The translations under genes and the position numbers were made by a program. A stretch of 64,000 bases of DNA, from assembly GCA_030605415.1 (NCBI GenBank), contig JAUWIJ010000001.1, positions 91,514-155,513 on the forward strand, given 5' to 3'. The notes under the pieces are model-generated. The model saw only the letters and a list, made by a program, of their open reading frames with translations. It was not told where the DNA came from and made no database searches. This document shows, piece by piece, positions 2,990 to 51,315 of the stretch. Each line of letters starts with the position of its first letter. Positions within the stretch are counted from its first letter, which is position 1. Source of the DNA: an archaeon (GTDB lineage: Archaea; Nanobdellota; Nanobdellia; Pacearchaeales; GW2011-AR1).

Positions 2990-3727
2990 ATGAGATTATT
3001 TGATTGGTTGAAAGGCGAAAAAATTTTGTATTATCCAGGATGCTTAACAAAGGGAGTCTTGAAAGAACAATTTGAAAATTATAAAGAAATTTTTAATCAA
3101 CTTAGGATTGATTTTATTTTATTATCCGAGAAAGAAGTTTGCTGTGGTTCACCAGTTTTGAATGCTGGTTATAAAAAAGATGCGCGAAAATTGGCCACAA
3201 AAAATTTGAAACTCTTTAACGAAAAAGGCATTACAAAAATTGTAACAAATTGCCCAGCATGCTACCATGTATTTAAAGAAGTATACCCCGAATTAATACG
3301 AGATTGGAACATTTCGACCGAACATGCAACAGTCACAATTTTGAATGTGCTAAAGCGAAAAAGAATTAGATGGAAGGGAACCGAAGAAAATAGAGAGATA
3401 GTCGCCTATCATGACCCGTGTCATCTTGGTAGATATAGCGGAATTTATGAGGAACCACGAGAAGTGATTAAACTACTAGGAGGAAAAATTATAGAAATAA
3501 AAAACAATCGGGGAAACGCAATTTGTTGTGGTGGTGGTGGTGGAGTTCGCGCAAATTTTCCCGAGATTGCAAAAACGAGTGCAAAGAAAAAAGTTGCAGA
3601 GATTGGGGATGAAGTCGGCAAAATTATTTCGCCATGTGGATTATGTTATGCCAATATTAAATCAGCGACGGACAAAAGTACAGAGTTCTCAGATTTTGTG
3701 CTTGGAAAGTTAAAGGGAATGAAATGA
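2990..3727 (+). CDS. CCG-domain (Fe-S)-binding protein, GlcF/HdrB-like
   Basis: YYPGC...EVCCGSP...VTNCPAC and YHDPCHLGR...CCGGGGG...SPCGLC: two CCG domains. Confidence 0.88.
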   Translation: MRLFDWLKGEKILYYPGCLTKGVLKEQFENYKEIFNQLRIDFILLSEKEVCCGSPVLNAGYKKDARKLATKNLKLFNEKGITKIVTNCPACYHVFKEVYPELIRDWNISTEHATVTILNVLKRKRIRWKGTEENREIVAYHDPCHLGRYSGIYEEPREVIKLLGGKIIEIKNNRGNAICCGGGGGVRANFPEIAKTSAKKKVAEIGDEVGKIISPCGLCYANIKSATDKSTEFSDFVLGKLKGMK

Positions 3728-4848
3728 AAATAAATAAAAATATTATGAAAGTTTATGAAAGTGACGCCTCTCAATTAAAAGGAAATGCGTTAGATGTCGT
3801 TTTCCCAAAGAGTGTTGCGGAAGTTCGTGGAATTGTCGCTAAAGCAAATAGAATTGTCGTTCGTGGAGCTGGAACAGGTTTGGCTGGAGGCTGTGTTCCG
3901 CAAAATGGTTTAGATGTTGTTTTAGATGTATCCAAAATGGACAAAATTTCAGAATTTGATATTGAACGAAAAACCGTTGAAGTTGAAGCAGGAGTAATTT
4001 TGGACGACCTGCAAGATTATATTTCGGAACATAATTTGGAATTTCCAGTTAGTCCCTTTAGTCATGCCGTCTGTACCATTGGGGGAATGATTGCCACTGA
4101 CGCTGTTGGAAGTCGCGCGATTAAATACGGAAAGACTTCAAATTGGATTAAATGGATTGAAATTGTTGACGATGAGGGAAGGTTGCACAAAAAAGGAATT
4201 ACTGAGTTAAGTGACTATTTCGGAATGGAAGGAATTACCGGAGTTATTGTTCAGGCTTGTTTAAAATTATCGCCGAAAAAAGAGAGAACCGCAACTTTGA
4301 TTAGTATTGATAATTATGAGGAGGTTATTTCAATTGTCAGAAACTTGAAAAGAAACTCGGCAATTTCAATGATTGAATTTTTAGGAAAAATAGTTTCTGA
4401 AAAGATTGATCTTGGAAATAATTATCATTTGATTGTTGAATATGAAGATGGCTCAGGAAAATTGTCTGACGGGGAATATAGAAAACTTTTAGCATTGAGA
4501 GGAAAAATGGGAAGCATGATGATTGAAGCGAGACATATTTATTTGGAGGACCCGAAAGTTTTACTTGATAGGTCAGATAAACTGATTGAGTGGTTGGAGA
4601 AAAAAGGGATTCCTGTTTTTGGACATATTGGCGTTGGAATTTTTCATCCAAGATTTAACGAAGAACAAAAGAAATATATTCCAGAAATGATGAAGTTAGT
4701 AAAAAGACTTGGGGGACAAATTTCGGGAGAACATGGTATTGGAATTTTAAAAAAAGAATTTGTTGAAATAAATGATAAGAAGATTTTGATTAATATAAAA
4801 AAACGAACAGACCCCTTAAATAAATTTAATGTTGGGAAGGTAATATGA
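3724..4848 (+). CDS. FAD-binding oxidoreductase, GlcD/D-lactate dehydrogenase family
   Basis: VRGAGTGLAGG, CTIGGMIATDAVG, GHIGVGIFHP, SGEHGIG and DPLNKFNVGK motifs. ATGA overlap with the upstream gene. Confidence 0.88.
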   Translation: MKINKNIMKVYESDASQLKGNALDVVFPKSVAEVRGIVAKANRIVVRGAGTGLAGGCVPQNGLDVVLDVSKMDKISEFDIERKTVEVEAGVILDDLQDYISEHNLEFPVSPFSHAVCTIGGMIATDAVGSRAIKYGKTSNWIKWIEIVDDEGRLHKKGITELSDYFGMEGITGVIVQACLKLSPKKERTATLISIDNYEEVISIVRNLKRNSAISMIEFLGKIVSEKIDLGNNYHLIVEYEDGSGKLSDGEYRKLLALRGKMGSMMIEARHIYLEDPKVLLDRSDKLIEWLEKKGIPVFGHIGVGIFHPRFNEEQKKYIPEMMKLVKRLGGQISGEHGIGILKKEFVEINDKKILINIKKRTDPLNKFNVGKVI

Positions 4849-5048
4849 AAATCTTTGATTTTCAGTTAGTAGTTTGTAGTTCGAAAAACTTTGTTTTTCT
4901 GGTAGTTGGTAGTGGCAAATGTTGCGCAGTTTTTCCGCGATTGGGAGGCAAGGAATGATGAAAAAATTTAAATATATTGGAGAATTAAAATAAGCATAAC
5001 TTCCCCAGTATGACGCAAGGAATGTCGGGAGTCTTTATTTTTTTTAAA

Positions 5049-5459
5049 ATGGTTAACAATAAGAAAAAACCAAGTGAAGCTGACAAAATTGAATCGGCAA
5101 ATTTAATGGAGGAGGCAAGTGAAATTTTTGATTCGTGTGTCCAGTGCGGAATGTGCAAAGCACTTTGTCCTGTTTTTAAAGTCTTAAAAGAGGAACGGGT
5201 TTCAGCGAGGGGAAAGGGAATTATTCTTTCGGATAAGGTAATGGATAAAGTTGTGTTTGAGTGTACTTTATGTAAGGGGTGTGAGCAAAAATGCCCGTTG
5301 GATATAAAGATTTGTGATGCAATCAGGAAAGCTCGGGAAGCGATGGTTTTGAAGTGGAAGGGTTTGAAGTCAAATGAGAAAATGATTGAGAATATTCGGA
5401 AATTCGGAAACCCTTTTGGGAAGGGATATGTTGATGAAAAGAAATTGTATTGTTGCTGA
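5049..5459 (+). CDS. 4Fe-4S dicluster protein (GlcF N-terminal-like)
   Basis: CVQCGMCKALCP and CTLCKGCEQKCP ferredoxin motifs plus GNPFG. ATG at 5049 preferred over 5010. Confidence 0.85.
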   Translation: MVNNKKKPSEADKIESANLMEEASEIFDSCVQCGMCKALCPVFKVLKEERVSARGKGIILSDKVMDKVVFECTLCKGCEQKCPLDIKICDAIRKAREAMVLKWKGLKSNEKMIENIRKFGNPFGKGYVDEKKLYCC

Positions 5460-5461
5460 GC

Positions 5462-5633
5462 CAGAACTGAGAATTCAGAGTTCAGAACTTAGAAGGGACA
5501 ACCGACTATCAATGGAAACAGGGGAAGCGGGGGGATGGCTCTAAGAGCGAATGAAATGAGCGGTCTGAGTTCTCAGAGTGAAACGACCTGAGATCTGGGC
5601 ACAAGAGTGAAACGACCTGAGTTCTGAGTTCTC
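5462..5633. repeat. dispersed heptamer-based repeat element, copy 1 (intergenic), with inverted arms
   Basis: Left arm has AGAACT(G/T/C)AG-type units, then a purine-rich spacer; right arm has CTGAGTTCT units and two GAGTGAAACGACCTGAG copies. Shares motifs with 33173, 39650 and 46905. Confidence 0.75.
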
Positions 5634-5699
5634 ATCAAATTCTAAAATAAGATGACAATCAAGAGATAATTTTATAAGTTGGTTTTTGGTTTGAATATT

Positions 5700-31168: not shown

Positions 31169-33145
31169 ATGGCATACAATACTACGAATTACGAATCTTT
31201 TTACGGCGGAGGAACAAGTTCGCTCAGTCCCGATTATGGAAATTTTACCGGCTATCGAATGAGCGCTGCGCAATTGGGTTTTCCGGGTTCGCCACAAACG
31301 GCAAATCAATTAGGGGAAACGGTCAATGCAATAAAACAAGGCGTAAAAGCATTTGAGGTTACAATGCTTATGCCAGAAACAGCTGAAGTAATTCCCACAC
31401 AACATTTTCAAGAAATGAGAGCACTAATGAAACTTAGCGGAGTTAAACCGTCGGTGCACGGTCCTTTGATTGATGCGGCGGGCTTTAATGATAAAGGATG
31501 GGGAGGCGAAGAAGGGCAGGCAGACAATGAACGAAGAATGTTTGACGCAATTGAGAAAGCGCATATATTAGATCCCAAAGGAAACATCCCCATTGTTTTT
31601 CATTCTTCCAACGGAACACCTGGCGCTGAATGGAAACCGGGCGATAAATCTCTTGGAGAAGATAAATTTGTAATGGAAAAAGGCTCCGCAATTAATCGAG
31701 AAACCGGGCAAATGATTGCGATTAAAAGAGAATATAAATTTCGACTGGACCAACCTGAATATTTAGAAAAGGGACAAGTTAAGGGAGGACCAAAAGGTGT
31801 TTTGTTTGATGCCGAAGGAACTGTCGGCTCCGCGAATTTGGGCGAGTGGGAAAACAAAATGACCGAGATTGCGCAAATGAATAAACACGCAGAGGAAATT
31901 ATTGGAGCTGCACCTATAAATTTGGAAGGATACGAAAATGCTGCGATTAGAAAAGATGGTGAAGTTATTGTTGATATGAGGACAGGAAAGACATTAGCTC
32001 CTTTTAATAGTGAAGGAAGAGAAAATCAGGTTGAGGCATATAATAAAATGAGGAAGGCGGGGCTTTTTCTTGAAAATTCAGAGCTGTCTTTTAATACGGC
32101 ATTTCATCAGGCATATAAATATGGCACCGATAAACAGAAAAAAGAATTGAAAGAATTGTCCAAGGAGTATACTACAGCGATGTATGGAGATAAAAAAACT
32201 TTAGGGGCAAAGCAGGTTGATGAAAAATTTATTTCTATTTATGGACCACAGAAGAGAATACATATTTTGAATGCGACATTGGAAAAGATGGGAGAAATTA
32301 CTGAAAATAAAATGGTCGTTAAAGATGGAGAATATGTTCTTAAAAATGGAAAGAGGTTTAAAGATAAAGATTACGGGACACCACAAATTTTTCAAGAAAC
32401 TGAAAAATTTGCTATGGGAAAAGCATCTCAGACTTTTGGGAATTTGGCTATGAAATCTTATGATAAGTTTGAGGAAAATGCTCCGGTAATTGCAATTGAA
32501 AACATGTTTCAGGGAATGGCATTTTCGCGAGCAGAAGATATGAAGAAATTAGTTGAGATGTCGAGGAAGAATTTTATTAAGCAATTAATTTCTAAGAAAG
32601 GAATAGACGAAAAAAAAGCCAAGAGTATTGCGGATAAACATTTGGGTGTGACTTGGGACGTCGGACATATTAATGTGATGAAAAAGAAAGGATTTACAGA
32701 TAAAGATGTTATTGAACAAACGAAAAAGATTGCACCGATGGTTAAACATATTCACCTGACGGATAATTTCGGCTATGCAGATACACACTTGGCACCAGGA
32801 ATGGGAAATGTTCCGATTAAGGGAATTTTGGAAGAGTTAGAAAAGACTGGGCGATTTGACGAAATGAGAAAAATTACAGAAGCCGGAGGTTTTGTTCAGC
32901 AATTTAAAAAGTCTCCCCACCCAATGACAATGGCCGCGTTTGGCTCACCAATTTACGGAATGAAATCTGCTCCTTACTGGAATCAGGTGATGGATATTCA
33001 GGGCTCGTATTTTGGAGGCTACGGAACAGTTAGTCCTTCTCAACATCATTCAATGTATGGCTCGGGGTTTACAACAATGCCGGTTGAGTTAGGCGGACAG
33101 ATGCCTGGTGGGCAGTCGCGGTTTGGCGGAACACCGATGGCGTAG
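31169..33145 (+). CDS. xylose isomerase/AP endonuclease 2-like TIM-barrel protein with large insertion
   Basis: Metal-binding motifs SVHGP, IAIENM, TWDVGH, HIHLTDN..DTHLAPGMG. GAGGTGA SD. Confidence 0.75.
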   Translation: MAYNTTNYESFYGGGTSSLSPDYGNFTGYRMSAAQLGFPGSPQTANQLGETVNAIKQGVKAFEVTMLMPETAEVIPTQHFQEMRALMKLSGVKPSVHGPLIDAAGFNDKGWGGEEGQADNERRMFDAIEKAHILDPKGNIPIVFHSSNGTPGAEWKPGDKSLGEDKFVMEKGSAINRETGQMIAIKREYKFRLDQPEYLEKGQVKGGPKGVLFDAEGTVGSANLGEWENKMTEIAQMNKHAEEIIGAAPINLEGYENAAIRKDGEVIVDMRTGKTLAPFNSEGRENQVEAYNKMRKAGLFLENSELSFNTAFHQAYKYGTDKQKKELKELSKEYTTAMYGDKKTLGAKQVDEKFISIYGPQKRIHILNATLEKMGEITENKMVVKDGEYVLKNGKRFKDKDYGTPQIFQETEKFAMGKASQTFGNLAMKSYDKFEENAPVIAIENMFQGMAFSRAEDMKKLVEMSRKNFIKQLISKKGIDEKKAKSIADKHLGVTWDVGHINVMKKKGFTDKDVIEQTKKIAPMVKHIHLTDNFGYADTHLAPGMGNVPIKGILEELEKTGRFDEMRKITEAGGFVQQFKKSPHPMTMAAFGSPIYGMKSAPYWNQVMDIQGSYFGGYGTVSPSQHHSMYGSGFTTMPVELGGQMPGGQSRFGGTPMA

Positions 33146-33148
33146 GGA

Positions 33149-33236
33149 AATAAAACGACCTTGTTTTATTACCAGAGCTTAGAACTCAGAACTTAGAGGG
33201 GAAGGGGATTTGATGAGTCGGTTACAAACTGTAACC
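33149..33236. repeat. convergent intergenic hairpins plus short copy 2 of the heptamer repeat element
   Basis: AATAAAAC-GACCTT-GTTTTATT (33149-33170), AGAGCTTAGAACTCAGAACTTAGAGGGG (from about 33174), GGTTACA-AAC-TGTAACC (33220-33236). Confidence 0.65.
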
Positions 33237-39440: not shown

Positions 39441-42080
39441 CTAATCAAAAATATTTTCTTTCTTCGGCTCTTCTGCAACCTCAATATTATCTTCTGAATT
39501 TTCCATCAAAACCTCTTCAACCACTTCAGGGTTTTCTAATTTATCTTTCGTTCCCTCGTCAGCATTCTTTATCTCTTCAATTTTCTTTTCAATCTCCTTC
39601 TTATTATCAAACGACTCAATTTGCAATTTTTCTGAGATTTGGGAGTTAGGTCCTGAGTCCTGAGTTCCTGCCTCGTCGGTAGTCGGTAGTCGGTTGCTCC
39701 CATTTCCCCTCTGAGTTCTGAGAGCGAAGCGGTCTGAGTTCTGAGTCGGCGTGCCCCAACCTGTCTCCCTTTTGTATTTGTGAGGGTATCTTATTGGAGT
39801 TCTGAGTTCTGAGTTCTGAGAGGATGAATCCTCACTCTCCAATTCACGAACCAATTCAGAAATTTCTTTCGCAACATCCGCATTCACAGAAATCGAATCA
39901 ATTCCACATTTAACTAAAAATTTTACCATCTCTTTTTTAGAACCCGCCTGCCCGCAGATTGAAGTTTCAACACCTTGCTTTTTACACTCTCGAATTACCC
40001 GCGAAATTTGTTTCAAAACCGCCCAATTCATTTCATCGTAAATATTTTGGACACCCTCATTACCTCTATCAATCGCCAACGTATATTGCGTTAAATCGTT
40101 CGTTCCAAAAGATATAAAATCAATTCCCTCGGCACATATATCTTTAATCATAATCGTTGCCGCTGGCGTTTCTATCATGACACCAAATTGGACATTATCA
40201 ATTTTCAGCTCATTAAATACTGCTCTTGTTTTCTTGACCTCATCAACCGAAATAATTTGCGGAAACATTATCCCGAATTTGTGTCCCTTATCTGCAAGTT
40301 CTTTAACCGCTAACAACTCGGCTTTCAAAATATCAGGATGCTTCAGTGAAAAACGAATTCCATGGTCGCCAAGCATCGGATTTTTTTCAATTTCTTTAGG
40401 TGCACCTTCCAGGTTCGCATACTCATCACTTCGAATATCAGAAGTTCTAACCCAGATTGGTTTACCGACAAAAGTCTCTGCTATTTTACCAAGTCCATCT
40501 TTTAACATTTTCTTATATTCATCTATCTTTTTTTCTTTTTCATAAGCAATCGGATGCTTGCCTGCCGATGCAATTAATCCTTCAATTCTTACCAATCCTA
40601 TCCCATCAGCCTTTGTTTTTGCAGCTCGCTCAGCAAACTGTGGAAGGTCAACCATAACCTTAATTTTTGTTTTTGTTTCAACAATTGGCAAAATCTCGAC
40701 CGATTTGTTTTCGGCTTTTCCTGCAAACACCTTTCCGTGAAACCCGTCTACCGTGATTTCATCACCTTCATGTAAAACATCAAGTGCATTTTGCGCACCA
40801 ACAATTGCTGGTATACCCATTTCTCTGGACACAATTGCCGCATGCGCCGTTACTCCGCCCTCCGATGTTACAATTGCCGCAGCTCTCTGCATCGTAACGA
40901 CCATATCAGGATTCGTCATTGTTGTCACCAAAATATCTCCCTGTTTAATTTTCCCAAGATCATCCATCGACTGAATTATTTTTACAACACCCGATGCAAC
41001 CCCCGGCGACGCCGCAACTCCTTCGGTCAATATTTGCCCATCCAAATCCGCCTCCTTTTCGCCAGATACCGATTTCTTAAGAGTCGTAATTGGCCTCGTT
41101 TGCAAAATATAAATATTCTCATCTTCAATTGAAAACTCTATATCCTGCGGTTTATCATAATGCTCTTCAAGTTTAATCGCATATTCAGCCAACTGTTTTA
41201 GCTCGTAAGTTTTCAAAACCCGACTGTTTGATTTCTCTGGCGTCAGTTGAATTGTCTTTGTTTGTCCCCCTGCGGTTCTGACAATCGCTAACTTTTTATC
41301 GGAAATTTTTTCATCTGTAATTTCCAAGTCCCTCGTTAGCACATACTGATCCGGTTTTATTTTCCCCGACACAATTCCCTCGCCCTGTCCGAAAACAGCT
41401 TCCATCAAAATTTCGTCATTATTCTTAATTGGATTCCGAGAAAATATTACACCCGACTTGTCAGAATTAATCATTTTTTGAATTATCACCGCAATACCAA
41501 CTAAATCATCGAAACCCTTTTTCCTTCGGTAAAAGATTGAACGTGCAGTAAAAATCGAGGCGAAACATTGCTTTACTTTTTGAATTAATTCAGAGTTCCC
41601 TTTTACATTAATAAAAGAATCTTGTTGCCCTGCGAAAGATGCATCGCCGAGGTCTTCTGCCGTCGCCGACGAACGAACCGAGACAAAAACTGGCTCCCGT
41701 GAAGATTTCAAAATTGCCAATGCTCCCGGCGAATTCTCAAGTCCGGTAAGGTCTATATTAAAATGGTCGTATGCTTCAAGAATCGCACCCTTCAAATCCT
41801 TCGACATGTCCGCACTAATTATTACCTCGCGAATTTCTCCAGCTTTTTTAGTAAGACCATCTGTATCATCAACATCTATTTTATTTAAAATCAATTTTAT
41901 TTCATCTTCAATTTTCGCTTCTTTAAGAAAATGATAAAACGCATCAGTTGTTATCACGAACGCCTGAGGCACCGGAAATTTCGAGTTAAACATCTCGCCC
42001 AAATTCGCCCCCTTGCCCCCCGCAAGATTCAGGTCTTTTTTAGAAAGATTCGAAAGCCACGCAATATATTTATCACTCAT
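39441..42080 (-). CDS. ppsA: phosphoenolpyruvate synthase with low-complexity C-terminal extension
   Basis: GGKGANLGEM, VRSSATAEDL..SFAGQQ, GGVTAHAAIVSREMG phospho-His, VRTSD, NPMLG, SFGTNDLTQY, ICGQ. Confidence 0.95.
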   Translation of the reverse strand: MSDKYIAWLSNLSKKDLNLAGGKGANLGEMFNSKFPVPQAFVITTDAFYHFLKEAKIEDEIKLILNKIDVDDTDGLTKKAGEIREVIISADMSKDLKGAILEAYDHFNIDLTGLENSPGALAILKSSREPVFVSVRSSATAEDLGDASFAGQQDSFINVKGNSELIQKVKQCFASIFTARSIFYRRKKGFDDLVGIAVIIQKMINSDKSGVIFSRNPIKNNDEILMEAVFGQGEGIVSGKIKPDQYVLTRDLEITDEKISDKKLAIVRTAGGQTKTIQLTPEKSNSRVLKTYELKQLAEYAIKLEEHYDKPQDIEFSIEDENIYILQTRPITTLKKSVSGEKEADLDGQILTEGVAASPGVASGVVKIIQSMDDLGKIKQGDILVTTMTNPDMVVTMQRAAAIVTSEGGVTAHAAIVSREMGIPAIVGAQNALDVLHEGDEITVDGFHGKVFAGKAENKSVEILPIVETKTKIKVMVDLPQFAERAAKTKADGIGLVRIEGLIASAGKHPIAYEKEKKIDEYKKMLKDGLGKIAETFVGKPIWVRTSDIRSDEYANLEGAPKEIEKNPMLGDHGIRFSLKHPDILKAELLAVKELADKGHKFGIMFPQIISVDEVKKTRAVFNELKIDNVQFGVMIETPAATIMIKDICAEGIDFISFGTNDLTQYTLAIDRGNEGVQNIYDEMNWAVLKQISRVIRECKKQGVETSICGQAGSKKEMVKFLVKCGIDSISVNADVAKEISELVRELESEDSSSQNSELRTPIRYPHKYKRETGWGTPTQNSDRFALRTQRGNGSNRLPTTDEAGTQDSGPNSQISEKLQIESFDNKKEIEKKIEEIKNADEGTKDKLENPEVVEEVLMENSEDNIEVAEEPKKENIFD
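39650..39822 (-). repeat. heptamer repeat element copy 3, in-frame inside ppsA
   Basis: (CAGAACT)n runs, GAGCGAAGCGGTC, CAGAACTCAGAGGGG and (CCGACTA)n; translated as SQNSELRT...TQNSDRFALRTQRG...TQDSG. Confidence 0.75.
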
Positions 42081-46467: not shown

Positions 46468-48495
46468 TTAGTTGGATAGTTTGATTAATTTCTTCCAACC
46501 TTTGCTGTATTTAATTTCTTCAATTCTAATTAATCCTTTTTCTTCCAAATTTTTCTTTATACCCGTTCCCTTTCTTGCCGAAAGCCCAATTTGTTGGTAT
46601 ACCTCAGTTGTGCTTAAATTATGCCCTGGATTTTTTTGCAAGAATTCCATAAAGACTTGCTCATCTGACTCTAAATCATCATACTTAACAGTTTTTAAAT
46701 TTTTAGGTGTCGCCAATTGATTTTCAAAAATTGAATTAATAACTAATATTATATCTGATGTTGTATAATCTCCCTGAGTTTTGCTTTTCTCTAAAATTTT
46801 TTCAATCTCCCCCAACTCTACACCCGCATCCAAATGCGATATAACAAAATCATATATTGTTTGCTGAACTTCCGTTAAATTGTCAGAGGAAAACAAGTGC
46901 TCCTTCCGAGTTCCCAGGTCGCTTCGCTCTAAGACCGCTTCGCTCTCAGATCTCAGCTCCCCTCCCCTGCCCCCGTTCCCCTTTCCCGCTCCCCTCTGAG
47001 TTCTAAGCTCTGAGCTCTGAGCTCTCGTCGAGTTCTGAGTTTCTAAAACCGGAACGGTGGCTACTCCAGGATTTTCAATCGCTTCATTAAATTCCAGATC
47101 GATTTTATTTTCATAACTCTGACCTAACATTATCGCTTGCATTCTCACCTTGATATATTCATCCGTTATGTTTTTGTTCCTCATCTCGATATACTGAGCC
47201 TCAACCAAAAATGGCATTGCATATCGTTCTGCAAGTTTTACAATCGCACTTCCTACGGATAGTTGAGAAAAATAATGTCTATTTTCCCTAAGATTCATAA
47301 TCTCGCTTACATCATAAATATCCTGAGGCAACTGTTGCTGGAATGCAATGTGACATGCGCTATTACCCTTAACCGTGTCAGAAATTTTCGAGATATGCTG
47401 GTCAAGACAGATAAGACTCGTTCCGTATTCTCGCATTTCCCTATATATCATATCCGTTGTGGACTCGTTGGTAAAATTTGTAGGCTTTTTTAAAAAAATA
47501 TTATGTGCCTCGTCGACAATAATCGCATGATCAAATTTGCCATTCGCTTCGTTTTGCCTTGCCTTTTTTAACTTGTAAATATATGTCAAAATGAATTCAC
47601 AGAAAAAACTTTTCTCTACACTACCCAACGAATTTAATTCCATAACTACCCTCTTGTCCAATAATTCCTCGACTGTAAAACTATTATCACCCTTATAATT
47701 TACCGTTTTACCAAATTCTCCAAATGTCATCACAGTCGCAATTCTTAACGCAGATTCCAACCAGCCTGCCTCTCGACCATGAATCTTATCTAGCTTTTCT
47801 TCCAATCTCCATTTAATATGATTCCATGTTGGATAATTATTTGAGTCACTGTAAATTCCCCATTCTTTAAATGCCTCATCAAGTGTTTCTAGAATTACTT
47901 TATGGACGCCGAACGATGCGGAAAAACATTCAGTTAAAAGGTCAGACAAAACATTAATCCATTCTTTTGGAGCCACACCTTTGGGCGGCTGATTTATATT
48001 TGTCTTAAATAAATTGCTTACTTTCTCATCACCAACAGTAAAGGTCATAATTGAATTATCTTCTGCCGAAAGTGGCCGGAAAGATTTCTTCCAATCAAAA
48101 ATTAAATAGGGTTTATTGTGTTTATTTAATGCTTCAATTATTTTAAATGCGAAAGTCGTTTTACCAGAACCAGACATGCCCGTGACACAAATATGCCGTG
48201 GCCAATCTTGCTCTCTCAATGTAAAATCAAAAAGTTTTTTCTTTGCATAACTAATCGTTGCAAGATTATATGTTCCATCAATTAGTTCCTTTCTCGGAGG
48301 TTCTAACAAAACACCCTTGTCCAGCAACTGATTCAAATATTTTTGATAAAGCGTATTTAAAACATGAGCAATTTCTTCCCGCTCTTCTCGCCCATCTGCT
48401 ACAGCATACTGAAAATAAATCTCATCAATCTTCTTTCCAAAAACCGGCCTAAGTTTATTACAAATTTCCTCTATAGCTAATGGTCTCTGTATCAT
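46468..48495 (-). CDS. HerA/FtsK-TraG/VirB4-superfamily ATPase (DUF87-like) with C-terminal HTH
   Basis: ICVTGMSGSGKTT Walker A, IIVDEAH Walker B, LDQHIS; C-terminal LSTTEVYQQIGLSARKG..LEEKGLI wHTH. Confidence 0.85.
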   Translation of the reverse strand: MIQRPLAIEEICNKLRPVFGKKIDEIYFQYAVADGREEREEIAHVLNTLYQKYLNQLLDKGVLLEPPRKELIDGTYNLATISYAKKKLFDFTLREQDWPRHICVTGMSGSGKTTFAFKIIEALNKHNKPYLIFDWKKSFRPLSAEDNSIMTFTVGDEKVSNLFKTNINQPPKGVAPKEWINVLSDLLTECFSASFGVHKVILETLDEAFKEWGIYSDSNNYPTWNHIKWRLEEKLDKIHGREAGWLESALRIATVMTFGEFGKTVNYKGDNSFTVEELLDKRVVMELNSLGSVEKSFFCEFILTYIYKLKKARQNEANGKFDHAIIVDEAHNIFLKKPTNFTNESTTDMIYREMREYGTSLICLDQHISKISDTVKGNSACHIAFQQQLPQDIYDVSEIMNLRENRHYFSQLSVGSAIVKLAERYAMPFLVEAQYIEMRNKNITDEYIKVRMQAIMLGQSYENKIDLEFNEAIENPGVATVPVLETQNSTRAQSSELRTQRGAGKGNGGRGGELRSESEAVLERSDLGTRKEHLFSSDNLTEVQQTIYDFVISHLDAGVELGEIEKILEKSKTQGDYTTSDIILVINSIFENQLATPKNLKTVKYDDLESDEQVFMEFLQKNPGHNLSTTEVYQQIGLSARKGTGIKKNLEEKGLIRIEEIKYSKGWKKLIKLSN
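46905..47045 (-). repeat. heptamer repeat element copy 4, in-frame inside the ATPase gene
   Basis: AGAGCTCAGAGCTTAGAACTCAGAGGGG and GAGCGAAGCGGTC/GAGCGAAGCGACC; translated as TQNSTRAQSSELRTQRG...LRSESEAVLERSDLGTR. Confidence 0.75.
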
Positions 48496-49079
48496 TTTAA
48501 ATTTCTCCCCATTATTTCATCTACTCTTTGTCCTTCCCAAGATTCAAAATCGTAAAAATAAAGTCTCTTTTTCTTTCCATCCCATCCGCAATTATGATAA
48601 AGATTTGTATCTATAGTTTGATATCCCAAATCGTAAATTACCCGCATCTGTTTATTATTATGATAAAGAGTTGTATCTATAGTTTGATATCCCAAATCGC
48701 GAATTACCCGCATCTGTTTATTAAATTGTTTTATTGCTTTTATTTTTTGATAATGTTTTGTTTCAACTAAATCTAATTTTTCCATTACCAAAAATGGCTT
48801 TTCATCTTCCTGCCCAATAGCTAACGCATACATTTGAGGAACATTGACACCATTAACCATTAAATCTATTCCAATAAAATATTCTTTTTTTAAATTATTC
48901 CTTCTTGTTTCCATGTGATATTCAAATTTAGGATACTTGATTGCATGGTTTCTATTATCAGAAAATATAATATTGTGTCTATGTCCTTCTTTATTGTTAA
49001 CAACTTCTTGTTCTACAAGGTTTCTATAATGTTCCATCAGCTTCGGTTCTAAATTTCTAATATAATCTTTTTGCATCAT
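48492..49079 (-). CDS. protein-kinase-like fold protein (APH/RIO/Kdo-like)
   Basis: AIKYP (beta3 Lys), KEY (helix C Glu), NVPQMY, FLVMEKL hinge, D..LYHN catalytic-loop-like segment (duplicated), YFYDFE. Confidence 0.5.
   Translation of the reverse strand: MMQKDYIRNLEPKLMEHYRNLVEQEVVNNKEGHRHNIIFSDNRNHAIKYPKFEYHMETRRNNLKKEYFIGIDLMVNGVNVPQMYALAIGQEDEKPFLVMEKLDLVETKHYQKIKAIKQFNKQMRVIRDLGYQTIDTTLYHNNKQMRVIYDLGYQTIDTNLYHNCGWDGKKKRLYFYDFESWEGQRVDEIMGRNLK
48591..48722. repeat. 66-bp in-frame tandem duplication, 3 mismatches
   Basis: Units 48591-48656 and 48657-48722; protein NKQMRVIRDLGYQTIDTTLYHN / NKQMRVIYDLGYQTIDTNLYHN. Confidence 0.92.
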
Positions 49080-49615: not shown

Positions 49616-50158
49616 ATGAATGAAATGATTTTACAAGCTAATCAGATAATTGTTCCTAGAATTAGCGAGATAAGAAATTTACATATACTTGGAGTTTATT
49701 TTAATATATTTAAGAATGGTCATGGCGACGATTTGCCTCCGTGTGTTATAACTCATAAAGATAAAATTGAAAGAGGAGCATTAGGTAACTATGCAGACAA
49801 AGATAAAATTCGTAGTATTTATGAAAAATTGGAGAATTCTAAAGCGAAATATTTACTTTTAGACGGGAATCATAAATCGGTTGCCGGAACTTTGTGCCAT
49901 CATCCTGTAAATTATTTTGAGCTTTGCTCTAATAGAGATTTAGAAACCCTTTCCGTGATGGCAGAGCGGGGAGAAATATTTAATTTTCCACATAACGAGG
50001 ATAGTATTACTAAGATAGCAAATAAGTTTATAGATTACACTTTCGATAGTACTCCTACTGAAAATATTTTAACTCTTCAGGATATGGTTGATAGTCTTGT
50101 CTCAAATAAAATATTGCCTCAATATATGATTGATAGGCATCGTCAGAATATTTACTGA
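49616..50158 (+). CDS. hypothetical protein, weak ParB/sulfiredoxin-like motif
   Basis: YLLLDGNHKS resembles the ParB-N DGxHR motif; nothing else supports it. Confidence 0.4.
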   Translation: MNEMILQANQIIVPRISEIRNLHILGVYFNIFKNGHGDDLPPCVITHKDKIERGALGNYADKDKIRSIYEKLENSKAKYLLLDGNHKSVAGTLCHHPVNYFELCSNRDLETLSVMAERGEIFNFPHNEDSITKIANKFIDYTFDSTPTENILTLQDMVDSLVSNKILPQYMIDRHRQNIY

Positions 50159-51315
50159 AACACAACAATATCTCGTGAGATAAACTGGTCAGGGCGAGAT
50201 TCCAATATTGGACCGAGATAAATTTTTAACCCAGTTTTTTCAGCAATTTTTTGAACATTCACGCGAAATAATCGTATTGTCGGAAATGTTATCGCAATTT
50301 TCGCAAATGGTTTTTTAATCACTTTCAACCTTCTCAAAATCGGAATCATATAAGCTTCAAAATTCAAAATAATTTGTTTCACTTGCTTGTCACTTACTTT
50401 TTCTCTAAGAATTTCTCCGAGCGGTGTCTCAGTTGCAATTGCACTAAACTGTAAATCTGAAGCACGTCTGGAATCGCTGTTTTCAATTGTATACCTATTT
50501 CCAATTTTATATTGAGTTGCAAGCCATTTCAAGTTAGTTTCAGCACCAATCGTAGCCCGCTTATCTTTATCAATACCATGAACATTTATCCGTTTCAAAA
50601 GAGCTTCCTGAAGTATACCACCTATTCCACAGAAAGGATCTAACAATAAATCATGAGGTTTTGCCCCAGAAAGATTAATTAATATTTTCGAAAGTCGCGG
50701 AGAAATTGCAAGAAACTCTCTCCTGACAGGCTTATTCATATCCCGATTTTTAACTTCCGTATTATCATAACTTTGCGTTGCCGTGCCAAAATAAATTGTA
50801 CCATTATATTCGTAATAAAAAATATAAAAATCAACTTTTGGCAATTCGTGTTTTTCGCCACTTTGAAACTGAATTTGTTTTCGACCGTGTTTTATCATCG
50901 CTTTCTTCTTTTCTCCCTTAAACTTATCCTTTAAAACTTGCGCATCTTGATTTCCAAATACTGCATACGAAAATTTATCTGCTGGAACAATTTCATTTTG
51001 GTTAATATATTTCATGAATTTCTGCTGTGTTCCTTCAAAAGTAACTTGCCCAAGCCACATCACCCCGCCAAACTCTTGAATGTCAAATTTCTCGTTCTCA
51101 TTTACTTCTATAACTAAAAAGTTTTCTTCAAATAAAATTTCTTTGTGGGGTCTGTTTCGAGCTTTCAGAAATTCTAAAACTTCTGCCCTTGATAACTCCG
51201 GATTTCTGCCTAAGATAAAAAATACCCTCACTGATTTATTTTGATTATTGGTTGGGGCACGCTGTACCCTCACTGATTTATTATTATTATTGGTTGGGGC
51301 ACGCTGGGTTTTCAT
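50152..51315 (-). CDS. Trm11/TrmG10-like RNA (guanine-N2) methyltransferase
   Basis: FILGRNPELS.AE N-terminus, LLDPFCGIGGILQEA motif I, GIDKD, ATETPLG (NPPY-equivalent). Confidence 0.75.
   Translation of the reverse strand: MKTQRAPTNNNNKSVRVQRAPTNNQNKSVRVFFILGRNPELSRAEVLEFLKARNRPHKEILFEENFLVIEVNENEKFDIQEFGGVMWLGQVTFEGTQQKFMKYINQNEIVPADKFSYAVFGNQDAQVLKDKFKGEKKKAMIKHGRKQIQFQSGEKHELPKVDFYIFYYEYNGTIYFGTATQSYDNTEVKNRDMNKPVRREFLAISPRLSKILINLSGAKPHDLLLDPFCGIGGILQEALLKRINVHGIDKDKRATIGAETNLKWLATQYKIGNRYTIENSDSRRASDLQFSAIATETPLGEILREKVSDKQVKQIILNFEAYMIPILRRLKVIKKPFAKIAITFPTIRLFRVNVQKIAEKTGLKIYLGPILESRPDQFISRDIVVFQ
51223..51306. repeat. 42-bp in-frame tandem duplication at the methyltransferase N-terminus
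   Basis: Two 42-bp units with 2 mismatches; QRAPTNNNNKSVRV / QRAPTNNQNKSVRV. Confidence 0.9.

What the first reader, a model, noticed from the sequence alone, without database searches (positions are those of the whole stretch)
5462..5633. Dispersed heptamer-based repeat family (CAGAACT)n, REP/MITE-like, four copies in 64 kb
Seen: related elements at 5462-5633 (+, intergenic), 33173-33207 (+, intergenic), 39650-39822 (-, in ppsA) and 46905-47045 (-, in the ATPase). They share an AGA(A/G)CT(C/T)AGA(A/G)GGG-type core and, in three copies, GAG(C/T)GAA(G/A)CG(G/A)(T/C)C. Copy 1 has AGAACT-type left arms and complementary CTGAGTTCT right arms, so it can fold back. A related (GGTAGTN)n run sits at about 4865-4915. 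The copies are patchworks of 7-mers rather than identical repeats. Inference: an unnamed non-autonomous or slippage-propagated element; no transposase is in the window.
Basis: partly seen in the sequence, partly recalled or inferred. Interest (0 to 1): 0.65.

Follow-up and report, generated by a model that had tools for sequence, protein, structure and literature searches.

The report
Heptamer-mosaic mini-insertions in DPANN archaeon
The four look-alike stretches are real copies of a genome-wide family of small GC-rich insertions in a tiny-genome (DPANN) archaeon, built from 7-base tandem repeats that host even smaller discrete inserts (16, 24 and 42 bases); they sit after genes and, in frame, inside genes, and resemble cyanobacterial and Rickettsia repeat DNA that I found no report of in archaea.

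Summary
Observation confirmed. All four copies exist, and both shared motifs are far above chance: 4 hits against 0.11 expected, and 5 against 0. The family is genome-wide. The genome is an 888-kb, 35% GC Pace-/Woesearchaeota-type MAG. CAGAACTCAG occurs 96 times (1-2 expected), and about 265 repeat regions cover 2.8% of the genome.

The copies are not one element with fixed ends. They are mosaics: heptamer arrays carrying discrete nested inserts of 16 nt, 24 nt and a 42-nt unit (TACCCTCAC-N18-GGTTGGGGCA, about 90 copies), plus hairpins and G-rich tracts.

Close relatives have empty sites for three window copies. The fourth is shared with one relative but has different modules. One orthologous pair shows a clean 42-nt gain with no target duplication.

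Between same-direction genes the G-rich strand is nearly always the sense strand (26:2; 32:1 for G-quadruplex motifs). The ppsA, ATPase and one further gene read through their inserts in frame.

No Y1/RAYT, TnpB, DDE, rve or IS110 transposase was found, so this is not a REP/RAYT or classical MITE system. Closest analogues are cyanobacterial STRR/SDR repeats, G-rich heptamers of Xanthomonas/Nostoc, and Rickettsia RPEs. I call it a new variant of a known kind. What moves it is unknown.

The parts
5461..5633 (+). Copy 1, intergenic, starting 2 nt after the TGA stop (5457-5459) of the Fer4 gene. Layout: left CAGAACT-type arm 5462-5489; junction CTTAGAAGGG 5488-5497; G-rich core to about 5540; 24-nt-type module 5544-5566; two AGAGTGAAACGACCT modules 5575-5589 and 5604-5618; right arm GAGTTCTGAGTTCT 5619-5633.
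   Evidence: Sequence and module coordinates. G024 and G007 have empty sites (TGCTGAG|AGATAATTTTATAAG); the window carries 203 extra nt, 5461-5663.
5634..5663 (+). Non-repeat tail (CATCAAATTCTAAAATAAGATGACAATCAAG). Like the mosaic, it is absent from the empty sites of G024 and G007.
   Evidence: Alignment. Its origin is unknown.
33173..33207 (+). Copy 2, intergenic. Three CAGAGCT/TAGAACT/CAGAACT heptamers plus TAGAGGGGAAGGGG. It lies 28 nt after a TAG stop (33143-33145) and directly after the hairpin AATAAAAC-GACCTT-GTTTTATT (33149-33170).
   Evidence: G024 has the same site filled, with an extra GACGGACAGGAAGTCC hairpin plus two heptamers. G241, G004, G018 and G007 lack it.
39650..39822 (-). 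Copy 3, in frame in the C-terminal tail of PEP synthase (ppsA). On the coding strand it reads: (CAGAACT)3, the 42-nt unit, a heptamer, the 16-nt module, AGAGGGG plus a G-rich stretch, (ACCGACT)3, then (CAGGACT)-type heptamers.
   Evidence: The closest relative L009 (87% aa identity) has only CTCAGAACTCAGAC at this site; the window has 156 extra nt (52 codons).
39747..39788 (-). 42-nt unit TACCCTCACAAATACAAAAGGGAGACAGGTTGGGGCACGCCG, nested in the CAGAACT array of copy 3 and translated as YPHKYKRETGWGTP.
   Evidence: Removing it restores the junction CCAATAAGA|ACTCAGAAC, which recurs elsewhere in the genome.
46905..47045 (-). Copy 4, in frame in an inter-domain linker of a HerA/DUF87-type ATPase. 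It contains heptamers at 46999-47026, a G4-capable G-rich core (C-rich on the + strand, 46959-46981), and two 16-nt-type modules at 46916-46946.
   Evidence: Orthologues in G241 and G018 lack 132-135 nt here.
4861..4915 (+). A further family member: GTTAGTA/GGTAGTT heptamers on both sides of the hairpin GAAAAACTTTGTTTTTC (4883-4899), just after the stop of the FAD-oxidase gene (3724-4848).
   Evidence: GGTAGTT arrays occur 22 times in the genome.
51223..51306 (+). Two head-to-tail 42-nt units (95% alike). They lie antisense inside the first 30 codons of the gene at 50152-51315 (-) and are translated as APTNNNNKSVRVQR and APTNNQNKSVRV.
   Evidence: G241 shares both units. G018 lacks them and its protein starts MESTFFILGRNP.

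Best explanation
The four copies belong to a lineage-specific, non-autonomous mosaic repeat family of a Pace-/Woesearchaeota-type DPANN archaeon.

The scaffold is short tandem arrays of heptamers. CAGAACT and its complement are the commonest. GGGATTT, GGGAGTT, GGTAGTT, CGGAGTT and others also occur. The arrays probably grow, shrink and exchange by slippage and by recombination between arrays.

These arrays are landing pads for a few very small discrete inserts:
- a 16-nt module (GACCGCTTCGCTCTCA type);
- a 24-nt module (CCGCTCATTTCATTCGCTCT type);
- short hairpins;
- a 42-nt unit, TACCCTCAC-N18-GGTTGGGGCA-N5, whose ends can pair.

The 42-nt unit enters precisely and without target duplication. 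Its hosts are heptamer arrays, other modules, copies of itself and genes. Composites then spread as larger blocks.

Copies persist only where they do little harm. One place is just after stop codons, with the G-rich strand as the sense strand. The other is in frame and stop-free inside disordered tails and linkers of proteins, where they are translated.

Shown:
- the family exists and is modular;
- inserts have exact lengths;
- relatives have empty and filled sites;
- elements are polar with respect to local genes;
- in-gene copies stay in frame;
- five transposase families are absent.

Inferred:
- slippage and recombination as the engine of array turnover;
- selection as the cause of polarity;
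- an unidentified host or trans-acting activity as the mover of the small units.
For: Scale:
- 265 repeat regions total 24.8 kb, or 2.8% of the genome.
- Their GC is 50% against 35% for the genome. Intergenic gaps holding elements have a median of 358 nt against 62 nt for gaps without. 23 of 44 contig ends lie in or near repeats.

Modularity:
- Module motifs occur 14-377 times each, and none (apart from the strand-symmetric G-rich pattern) occurs in the reversed genome.
- There are about 90 copies of the 42-nt unit. In 68 listed copies the two conserved 9-mers are exactly 18 nt apart (36-nt core).

Discreteness:
- Deleting exactly 42 nt restores an 18-mer junction that recurs elsewhere in 39 of 68 copies. 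Any other deletion length does so in at most 2.
- The same test gives 16 nt and 24 nt for the two smaller modules.
- Nested and tandem copies exist.

Before/after pair:
- G024 carries one extra 42-nt unit inside the unit it shares with G000 at C1:64179. Flanks are 93-100% identical and there is no target duplication.

Empty sites for window copies:
- copy 1;
- ppsA;
- ATPase;
- the N-terminal tandem.
- Copy 2 differs by one hairpin-plus-heptamer module between G000 and G024.
- G004 has a different, 42-nt-like insert after the same Fer4 stop codon.

Polarity:
- In gaps between same-direction genes, 26 marker clusters are sense and 2 antisense.
- There are 98 G4-capable motifs against 2-6 in shuffles. 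Their orientation is 32:1 in such gaps and 33:7 inside genes.
- Where local and regional gene direction differ, orientation follows the local genes in 6 of 6 cases.
- 18 of 47 downstream elements start within 30 nt of the stop codon.

No mobilising enzyme found:
- No Y1_Tnp, TnpB, DDE_Tnp_1, rve or IS110 transposase in G000.
Against: - No enzyme or mechanism for the precise insertions was identified. The genome is only 89% complete and fragmented at repeats, so a mobilising gene could be missing.
- Many 42-nt copies share both flanks and centre. The number of independent insertion events is therefore much smaller than the copy number. I count about 7-11 distinct target contexts.
- Gene conversion between arrays could account for most of the spread.
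- The polarity counts treat motifs and clusters as independent, and my gene model is a simple ORF caller.
- Polarity in intergenic DNA could reflect function or a transcription-coupled mechanism rather than passive tolerance.
Confidence: 0.6

Rival explanations
1. Functional punctuation. The mosaics are kept by selection as orientation-dependent signals at gene ends. Candidates are G-quadruplex or hairpin structures in the transcript or the non-template strand, acting in 3'-end formation, mRNA stability or insulation between genes. This is the role proposed for BIMEs and for the G-rich heptamers of Xanthomonas and Nostoc. In-gene copies would be by-products.
For: - Strong sense-strand polarity in intergenic DNA (26:2 and 32:1).
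- Orientation follows local transcription direction in 6 of 6 discordant cases.
- 98 G4-capable motifs in a 35% GC genome, against 2-6 expected.
- Many elements start close to stop codons.
- Copy 1 folds as RNA better than 199 of 200 shuffles.
- The same placement rule is published for GGGNATC repeats: within 50 bp of the stop, on the coding strand (PMC4692102).
Against: - Most close relatives manage without the elements at the same sites.
- CAGAACT arrays are nearly private to one genome: 68 hits, against 0-7 in 40 relatives.
- Composition and length differ at every locus.
- A third of the regions are inside ORFs.
- There is no oligo-T tract of the kind archaeal terminators use in the sense strand of the arrays. 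That criterion comes from my own knowledge and was not tested here.
Confidence: 0.2
2. Pure patchwork by replication and repair. No unit is mobile in its own right. Template switching or microhomology-mediated repair at breaks copies short pieces from other repeat loci. Heptamers act as the microhomology, so mosaics arise and homogenise by gene conversion alone.
For: - Inserts lie almost only inside other repeats, with no target duplication.
- Junctions are ambiguous by 1-4 nt, which is microhomology.
- Units with identical flanks and centres recur as blocks.
- The near-empty ppsA site of L009 already carries two heptamers.
- No transposase was found.
Against: - The 42-nt unit keeps exact length and invariant ends in at least 7 unrelated target contexts, including unique coding sequence and non-repeat flanks in many metagenome contigs.
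- The clean 42-nt gain inside an existing copy needs a defined unit rather than random patch lengths.
Confidence: 0.15
3. Retro-insertion through an RNA intermediate. The small units are copied by a reverse transcriptase, as was proposed for cyanobacterial SDR elements. The only RTs in the genome are the two diversity-generating retroelement (DGR) RTs.
For: - G000 has two DGRs, each with RT, bAvd and a CLec-type target.
- In both, a 42-nt unit lies on the template-repeat strand downstream of the template repeat. In one it sits 85 nt after the template repeat, in the spacer before the RT gene.
- Sense-strand polarity of the family fits an RNA origin.
Against: - Only 1 of 80 other loci carrying the unit (423 kb) has an RT within reach. 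The control gave 0 of 80.
- The orthologous RT locus of G241, and the RT loci of G018, G042 and G024, have no unit nearby.
- Variation in the unit is not confined to adenines.
- Units occur in both orientations inside genes.
Confidence: 0.05
4. Assembly or binning artefact: chimeric or mis-joined repeats of a metagenome-assembled genome.
For: 23 of 44 contig ends lie in or next to repeats. Three contig ends carry the same sequence.
Against: - The window copies lie in the middle of a 162-kb contig.
- They keep long ORFs open in frame.
- They are flanked by DNA that aligns to independent MAGs.
- The same units occur at orthologous sites in MAGs from other studies, and in 68 metagenome stretches.
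Confidence: 0.01

Closest known systems
STRR heptamer arrays and SDR 'very small mobile repeated elements' of heterocystous cyanobacteria (Elhai et al. 2008, Genome Res 18:1484). The paper is not held in the library. It is cited in PMC3116915 and PMC4390886, and the details here are from my memory of the abstract.
   Same: - Several families of dispersed tandem heptamers.
- Tiny discrete units inserted precisely into those arrays, into other small elements and into copies of themselves.
- No transposase.
- Lineage-restricted.
   Different: - The host is an archaeon with an 0.9-Mb genome, not a multicellular cyanobacterium.
- Units are 16, 24 and 42 nt, not 21-27 nt, and are unrelated in sequence.
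- Many copies are translated in frame inside genes.
- There is strong sense-strand polarity.
- No compensatory-mutation support for a structure was obtained.
G-rich GGGNATC / GGGGA(C/T)T heptamer repeats of Xanthomonas and Nostoc (Rehm et al. 2015, PMC4692102)
   Same: - G4-capable heptamer arrays.
- Over-represented between co-oriented ORFs.
[quoted passage not shown]
- Here: 98 G4 motifs, 32:1 sense in such gaps, and 18 of 47 within 30 nt of the stop.
   Different: - The bacterial repeats are simple arrays.
[quoted passage not shown]
- They are not reported to host nested inserts.
- Here the G-rich tracts are one module of a mosaic with inverted CAGAACT arms.
REP / BIME / REPIN elements with RAYT (Y1 HUH) transposases (PMC3116915, PMC3733652)
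   Same: - Short, high-copy, non-autonomous repeats.
- Combined into mosaics (BIME-like), mostly after genes.
- Hairpin potential.
   Different: - No RAYT/Y1 gene in the genome.
- No REP-type palindrome heads the units.
- About a third of the regions lie inside ORFs.
- The scaffold is heptamer-based.
Rickettsia palindromic elements (RPEs), as summarised in PMC10969869
   Same: - Selfish repeats inserted in frame into unrelated housekeeping genes and translated.
- In the window these are ppsA, the ATPase and one further gene. Genome-wide there are many more.
   Different: - RPEs are about 150-bp elements of fixed sequence families in an alphaproteobacterium.
- Here the inserts are variable mosaics of 7- to 42-nt pieces in an archaeon.
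MITEs (PMC10969869, PMC11602168)
   Same: - Small, non-autonomous and multicopy.
- The 42-nt unit has imperfect inverted ends (6 pairs).
   Different: - No target-site duplication.
- No parent IS or transposase.
- At 42 nt the unit is below the usual MITE size.
Intergenic TAACTGA direct repeats of marine Beggiatoaceae (MacGregor 2015, PMC4679880)
   Same: Abundant intergenic tandem heptamers of unknown origin in a restricted lineage.
   Different: - A single AT-rich heptamer.
- Bacterial.
- Not described there as mosaic or as translated.

Membership tests
REP/BIME-RAYT | A RAYT (Y1 HUH, Pfam Y1_Tnp) gene in the genome | tested here: not met
   A six-frame search with PF01797 gave 0 hits in G000. 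Controls gave hits, and genus members G315, G218 and G262 have 1-10 copies yet few or no elements. The genome is 89% complete.
REP/BIME-RAYT | Units are 20-40-nt imperfect palindromes with a conserved GTAG/CGTC head | tested here: not met
   No unit starts with GTAG or CGTC. The 16- and 24-nt modules are not palindromes. The 42-nt unit has only 6 invariant end pairs around a 19-nt loop, at -4.3 kcal/mol.
REP/BIME-RAYT | Extragenic location | tested here: not met
   Of the repeat regions, 131 are intergenic, 96 are inside ORFs and 38 overlap ORF edges. Three genes in the window carry in-frame copies.
REP/BIME-RAYT | Mosaic combination of a few motifs (BIME) | tested here: met
   The same modules recur in different orders at 66 or more loci.
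MITE | Target-site duplication | tested here: not met
   Removing exactly 42 nt restores the host sequence with no duplication. The G024/G000 before/after pair shows none.
MITE | Terminal inverted repeats | tested here: inconclusive
   The ends of the 42-nt unit match as TRCCCYMAC (6 of 9) and can pair. Whole mosaics have inverted heptamer arms but no fixed termini.
MITE | A parent IS with transposase in the genome or lineage | tested here: not met
   No Y1_Tnp, TnpB, DDE_Tnp_1, rve or Transposase_20 in G000. No long element is bounded by the unit's ends. Other transposase families were not searched.
STRR/SDR type (cyanobacteria) | Dispersed tandem heptamer arrays of several sequence families | tested here: met
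   TRF finds CTGAGTT 56, GGGATTT 27, GGGAGTT 24, GGTAGTT 22, CTAAGTT 22 arrays, and more.
STRR/SDR type (cyanobacteria) | Very small discrete units inserted precisely into arrays, other elements and themselves | tested here: met
STRR/SDR type (cyanobacteria) | Conserved secondary structure supported by compensatory changes | tested here: inconclusive
   All 6 predicted pairs are invariant in 27 diverse copies, and the covariation term is 0.
STRR/SDR type (cyanobacteria) | Sequence homology to, or lineage of, the described elements | tested here: not met
   The host is a DPANN archaeon. The units' sequences do not match the SDR or STRR sequences as I recall them. No direct comparison with the published sequences was possible.
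Rickettsia palindromic elements | In-frame insertion into unrelated protein genes, translated with the host protein | tested here: met
   ppsA gains 52 codons, the ATPase 44-45 codons, and the gene at 50152-51315 gains 28 codons. About 24 in-ORF marker clusters were counted genome-wide (15 sense, 9 antisense). Translation itself is inferred from open frames.
Rickettsia palindromic elements | About 100-150-bp palindromic unit of a conserved sequence family | tested here: not met
   Inserts are variable mosaics with no conserved full-length consensus.
G4-forming heptamer repeats (PMC4692102) | At least four G-tracts, enriched near stop codons on the coding strand between co-oriented genes | tested here: met
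   98 motifs against 2-6 in shuffles; 32:1 sense in such gaps; distances to stop codons. G4 folding itself was not tested.
Known RNA families (Rfam 15) | A match at or near the gathering score | tested here: not met
   Only tRNA-Val reaches gathering score in the window. The best hits on the elements have E about 1-3, at 14-20 bits against thresholds of 43-55.

The most novel reading that the evidence does not exclude
These DPANN archaea have a transposase-independent, transcription-coupled way of writing tiny sequence units into DNA. The units are the 42-nt hairpin-ended module, the 16- and 24-nt modules and the heptamer arrays. They would be written into the non-template strand at gene ends. 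Alternatively or additionally, the resulting G-quadruplex/hairpin mosaics have been domesticated as orientation-dependent punctuation of transcripts. Either way this would be an archaeal system with no described counterpart, and the 42-nt unit would be among the smallest self-nesting mobile elements known.
Probability: 0.15. Interest if true: 0.85.

Novelty: new variant of a known kind. Interest (0 to 1): 0.6.

Why it matters
- DPANN archaea have some of the smallest and most streamlined cellular genomes. Yet about 3% of this one is fast-turning-over mosaic repeat DNA, including in-frame additions to central enzymes such as PEP synthase.
- The family combines traits so far described separately and, as far as my literature searches went, only in bacteria: cyanobacterial heptamer arrays with nested mini-elements, polar G-rich heptamers, and Rickettsia-style in-frame inserts.
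- It offers a clean natural system (42 nt, exact ends, no duplication, no transposase) for asking how very small DNA units move.
- Practically, these repeats break MAG assemblies (half the contig ends here), lengthen ORFs and can mislead annotation.

Tried and rejected
- **Known RNA family:** none. Rfam gathering search on the window and permissive searches on two elements.
- **C/D-box sRNA:** only E about 1 hits. Rejected.
- **CRISPR-like array (24-nt repeat, 18-nt spacer):** rejected. Neighbouring centres in tandem arrays are near-identical, and single units are dispersed and nested.
- **BHB (bulge-helix-bulge) intron removed by the splicing endonuclease:** rejected by reasoning. The central helix would need pairing with the flanks, which differ at every site, and in-gene copies are kept in frame and stop-free.
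- **Deletion derivative of a longer element with the same ends:** no such pair of ends was found in the genome.
- **Viral origin:** the single IMG/VR hit is a GC-rich chance match.
- **tRNA-derived:** only tRNA-Asp shares the 9-mer GGTTGGGGC. Treated as chance.
- **DGR/RT link:** both DGR loci of G000 hold a unit near the template repeat. The association does not generalise.
- **Fold-back as DNA cruciform:** copy 1 is not better than shuffles.
- **Replication-strand explanation of polarity:** elements follow local genes where local and regional directions differ. This was 6 of 6 cases, a small number.
- **Archaeal TATA-like promoter in the AT-rich centre of the 42-nt unit:** considered. Orientation relative to downstream genes gives no support (27 of 43). 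Not tested further.
Full report
**Observation.** The four stretches are in the sequence as described. GAGYGAARCGRYC occurs 5 times, in three copies, against 0 expected. The ppsA ORF (39441-42080, -) and a HerA/DUF87-type ATPase ORF (46468-48495, -) read straight through copies 3 and 4. The (GGTAGTN)n run near 4865-4915 is real; it consists of heptamers on both sides of a small hairpin. Copy 1 folds back convincingly only as RNA (z = -2.68, with an 18-bp stem from the two arms). As DNA it does not (z = 0.10).

**Organism and scale.** The window is part of an 888-kb, 22-contig, 35% GC assembly. Its ppsA is closest to MAGs labelled Pacearchaeota, Woesearchaeota or Nanoarchaeota, so the host is a DPANN archaeon.
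- CAGAACTCAG occurs 96 times genome-wide, where about 1-2 are expected.
- A self-comparison finds 265 repeat regions totalling 24.8 kb, or 2.8% of the genome.
- These regions are 50% GC.
- They widen the intergenic gaps that hold them: median 358 nt against 62 nt.
- They sit at or near 23 of 44 contig ends, so the true copy number is probably higher.

**Anatomy.** The copies are mosaics rather than one element with fixed ends.
- The scaffold is tandem heptamers. TRF finds CTGAGTT/CAGAACT in 56 arrays, GGGATTT 27, GGGAGTT 24, GGTAGTT 22, CTAAGTT 22, and others. Most fit NNNNGTT.
- A typical full element reads, on one strand: (CAGAACT)n, then AGAGGGG, then G-rich heptamers, then (AGAGCGAAGCGGTCT-GAGTTCT)n. 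The two outer arms are therefore inverted.
- Discrete units sit inside the arrays. The most striking is a 42-nt unit, TACCCTCAC-N18-GGTTGGGGCA-N5, with about 90 copies. The motif does not occur in the reversed genome.
- Deleting exactly 42 nt restores an 18-mer junction that recurs elsewhere in 39 of 68 copies. Deletions of 38-46 nt other than 42 do so in at most 2.
- The hosts restored in this way are CAGAACT arrays (CAGA^ACT), GGTCGG and TGGGATT arrays, the module AGACCGCT^TCGCTCT, and other 42-nt units. There are also head-to-tail tandems with a 42-nt period.
- The same deletion test shows that the smaller modules are 16-nt and 24-nt inserts in CAGAACT arrays, with 1-4 nt of junction ambiguity.
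- The ends of the 42-nt unit can pair (6 invariant pairs around a 19-nt AT-rich loop). The pairs never vary, so there is no covariation evidence either way.

**Evidence of gain and loss.**
- *Copy 1.* G024 (85-88% identical flanks) and G007 have TGCTGAG|AGATAATTTTATAAG. The window has 203 extra nt at that point. G004 has a different, 42-nt-like insert right after the same stop codon.
- *Copy 3.* The closest ppsA (L009, 87% aa identity) has only CTCAGAACTCAGAC where the window has 156 extra nt. The site lies in a variable acidic C-terminal tail that ends in a conserved KKEDIF[ND].
- *Copy 4.* Orthologues in G241 and G018 lack 132-135 nt in an inter-domain linker.
- *Copy 2.* It is shared with G024, which has an extra hairpin-plus-heptamer module. 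Four other relatives lack it.
- *Tandem at 51223-51306.* The two units lie in the first 30 codons of a gene. G241 shares them and G018 lacks them.
- *Cleanest case.* At C1:64179 both G000 and G024 carry a 42-nt unit inside a 620-aa ORF. G024 has a second unit of exactly 42 nt nested in the first, with near-identical flanks and no target duplication.

**Placement and polarity.**
- Half of the repeat regions are intergenic, although only about 14% of the genome is intergenic. 96 regions lie inside ORFs.
- Using orientation-specific markers, 47 of 61 intergenic clusters have a co-oriented gene upstream. In gaps between same-direction genes the count is 26 sense to 2 antisense (binomial p about 3e-6 by my arithmetic, assuming clusters are independent).
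- G4-capable motifs number 98, against 2-6 in shuffles. They are 32:1 sense in such gaps and 33:7 sense inside genes.
- Where the local gene direction differs from the regional majority, the element follows the local genes in 6 of 6 cases. The rule is therefore tied to transcription rather than to the replichore. The number of cases is small, and GC skew co-varies.
- 18 of 47 downstream elements begin within 30 nt of the stop codon.
- Inside genes, the CAGAACT strand has no stop in any frame, while its complement gives TGA in all three frames once three units are present. This follows from the sequence and explains the sense orientation of arrays in genes. It does not explain the intergenic polarity.
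- The 42-nt unit is found translated in three sense frames and two antisense frames.

**Search for a mover.** Six-frame searches of G000 found no Y1_Tnp/RAYT, TnpB, DDE_Tnp_1, rve or IS110-type transposase, while positive controls gave hits. Y1 genes are present in genus members that have few or no elements. No long element bounded by the unit's ends exists in the genome. The only reverse transcriptases belong to two diversity-generating retroelements, each with RT, bAvd and a CLec-type target. Each of these holds a 42-nt unit on the template-repeat strand downstream of the template repeat. However, only 1 of 80 other unit-bearing loci has an RT nearby, and the orthologous RT locus of G241 has none. 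I treat this as a weak lead.

**Distribution.**
- The CAGAACT 18-mer (up to 1 mismatch) occurs 68 times in G000. It occurs 6 and 7 times in two genus members and not at all in 38 other relatives.
- The exact 42-nt pattern occurs in 5 of 301 genomes of the order, all in the same genus: 73, 12, 6, 1 and 1 copies.
- Looser BLAST matches to the unit appear in all 11 genus members examined.
- 68 metagenome stretches of 30-44% GC carry it. These are mostly a T-rich-centre form, often in 42-nt tandems and often in unique flanks.
- The family is therefore genus-wide and old enough to be shared at some orthologous sites, for example C2:5163 with G241. It has expanded, together with the CAGAACT arrays, in this genome.

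**Comparison with what is known.**
- The closest match in behaviour is the combination of STRR heptamer arrays and SDR 'very small mobile repeated elements' of Nostoc-type cyanobacteria (Elhai 2008). That paper is not held in the library. Its existence and the precise insertion of SDR5 are confirmed by PMC3116915 and PMC4390886; other details are from memory.
- The polar, stop-codon-proximal, G4-capable tracts match the GGGNATC repeats of Xanthomonas and Nostoc (PMC4692102).
- The in-frame gene inserts match Rickettsia RPEs (PMC10969869).
- Membership in REP/RAYT fails on the RAYT gene, the palindrome type and the extragenic rule.
- Membership in MITEs fails on target duplication and a parent transposase.
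- A full-text search found no paper that links Pace-, Woese- or Nanoarchaeota with heptamer or interspersed repeats. Archaeal MITEs listed in the 2024 review are from Sulfolobus, haloarchaea and a few others.

**Mechanism.** I commit, at about 0.6, to the following.
- Heptamer arrays turn over by slippage and inter-array recombination.
- They act as permissive landing pads for a handful of tiny units.
- Those units insert precisely through an unidentified activity and then spread further as parts of composites.
- Selection removes copies that introduce stops or that place the C-rich strand in transcripts.
- What remains is sense-oriented elements after genes and stop-free, in-frame copies in disordered protein segments.

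The alternatives are listed with their tests: functional punctuation, pure repair patchwork, and RT-mediated copying. They are not mutually exclusive with this picture.

**Limits.**
- The gene model is a simple ORF caller.
- Counts of motifs and clusters are not fully independent.
- The assembly is 89% complete and breaks at repeats.
- Earlier notes of this scan on other windows of the same genome reached similar readings. I used them as leads only. I re-derived the 42-nt unit, its duplication-free insertion, the in-frame copies and the polarity from my own analyses.

Noticed in passing
window 4849-5009 (compare L102 552-1121): G024 and at least 10 other genus members carry a 189-aa NYN/LabA-like gene between the FAD-oxidase gene and the Fer4 gene. 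G000 lacks it and has the (GTTAGTA/GGTAGTT)-plus-hairpin element there. The starts of the NYN and Fer4 genes look alike (MVKKK...), which suggests deletion between similar sequences.
   Followed up: partly
window 39441-39640 and loci L009-L062: ppsA of this clade has a variable, acidic, low-complexity C-terminal tail of 50-135 aa. It always ends in KKEDIF[ND] (or NIF[NE]), which could be a conserved C-terminal tag of unknown role.
   Followed up: no
G000 C9:43122-46608 (L220) and C11:1-4616 (L221): There are two diversity-generating retroelements, each with RT and bAvd. The targets carry FGE-sulfatase/CLec and Lcl_C domains. In both, a 42-nt unit lies downstream of the template repeat on the same strand. 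In C9 it sits in the spacer between the template repeat and the RT gene.
   Followed up: partly
whole genome (TRF): Most abundant heptamer units share the form NNNNGTT: CTGAGTT, GGGAGTT, GGTAGTT, CTAAGTT, CGGTGTT, CGGAGTT, GGGGGTT. They look like variations on one theme rather than independent microsatellites.
   Followed up: no
window 48591-48723: A 66-nt unit is repeated twice (95% alike) inside ORF 48492-49079 (-). This duplicates the peptide NKQMRVI(R/Y)DLGYQTIDT(T/N)LYHN.
   Followed up: no
G004 locus L107, downstream of the Fer4 orthologue: A 42-nt-like unit (TACCCTCACATATTTATATTTTAATTTGATTGGGGCAGGCTC, with GATTGGGGC instead of GGTTGGGGC) sits a few nt after the same stop codon where G000 has copy 1. 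This looks like a recurrent insertion spot.
   Followed up: partly
G000 C12:68813-68884: The 3' acceptor end of tRNA-Asp contains GGTTGGGGC, the conserved 3' block of the 42-nt unit. Partial copies of this tRNA end recur at C12:82185 and C14:108. The match is probably chance.
   Followed up: no
G000 C7:89889 (- strand index) and C15:34044 (- strand index): There are two copies of a shorter form of the unit, with a 14-nt instead of an 18-nt centre. Their flanks are similar to each other (aactaag.ttcc.aa ... cata.taacttcgttt).
   Followed up: no
window 33149-33170: An AT-rich hairpin, AATAAAAC-GACCTT-GTTTTATT, lies directly between a stop codon and copy 2. It is conserved with G024.
   Followed up: no
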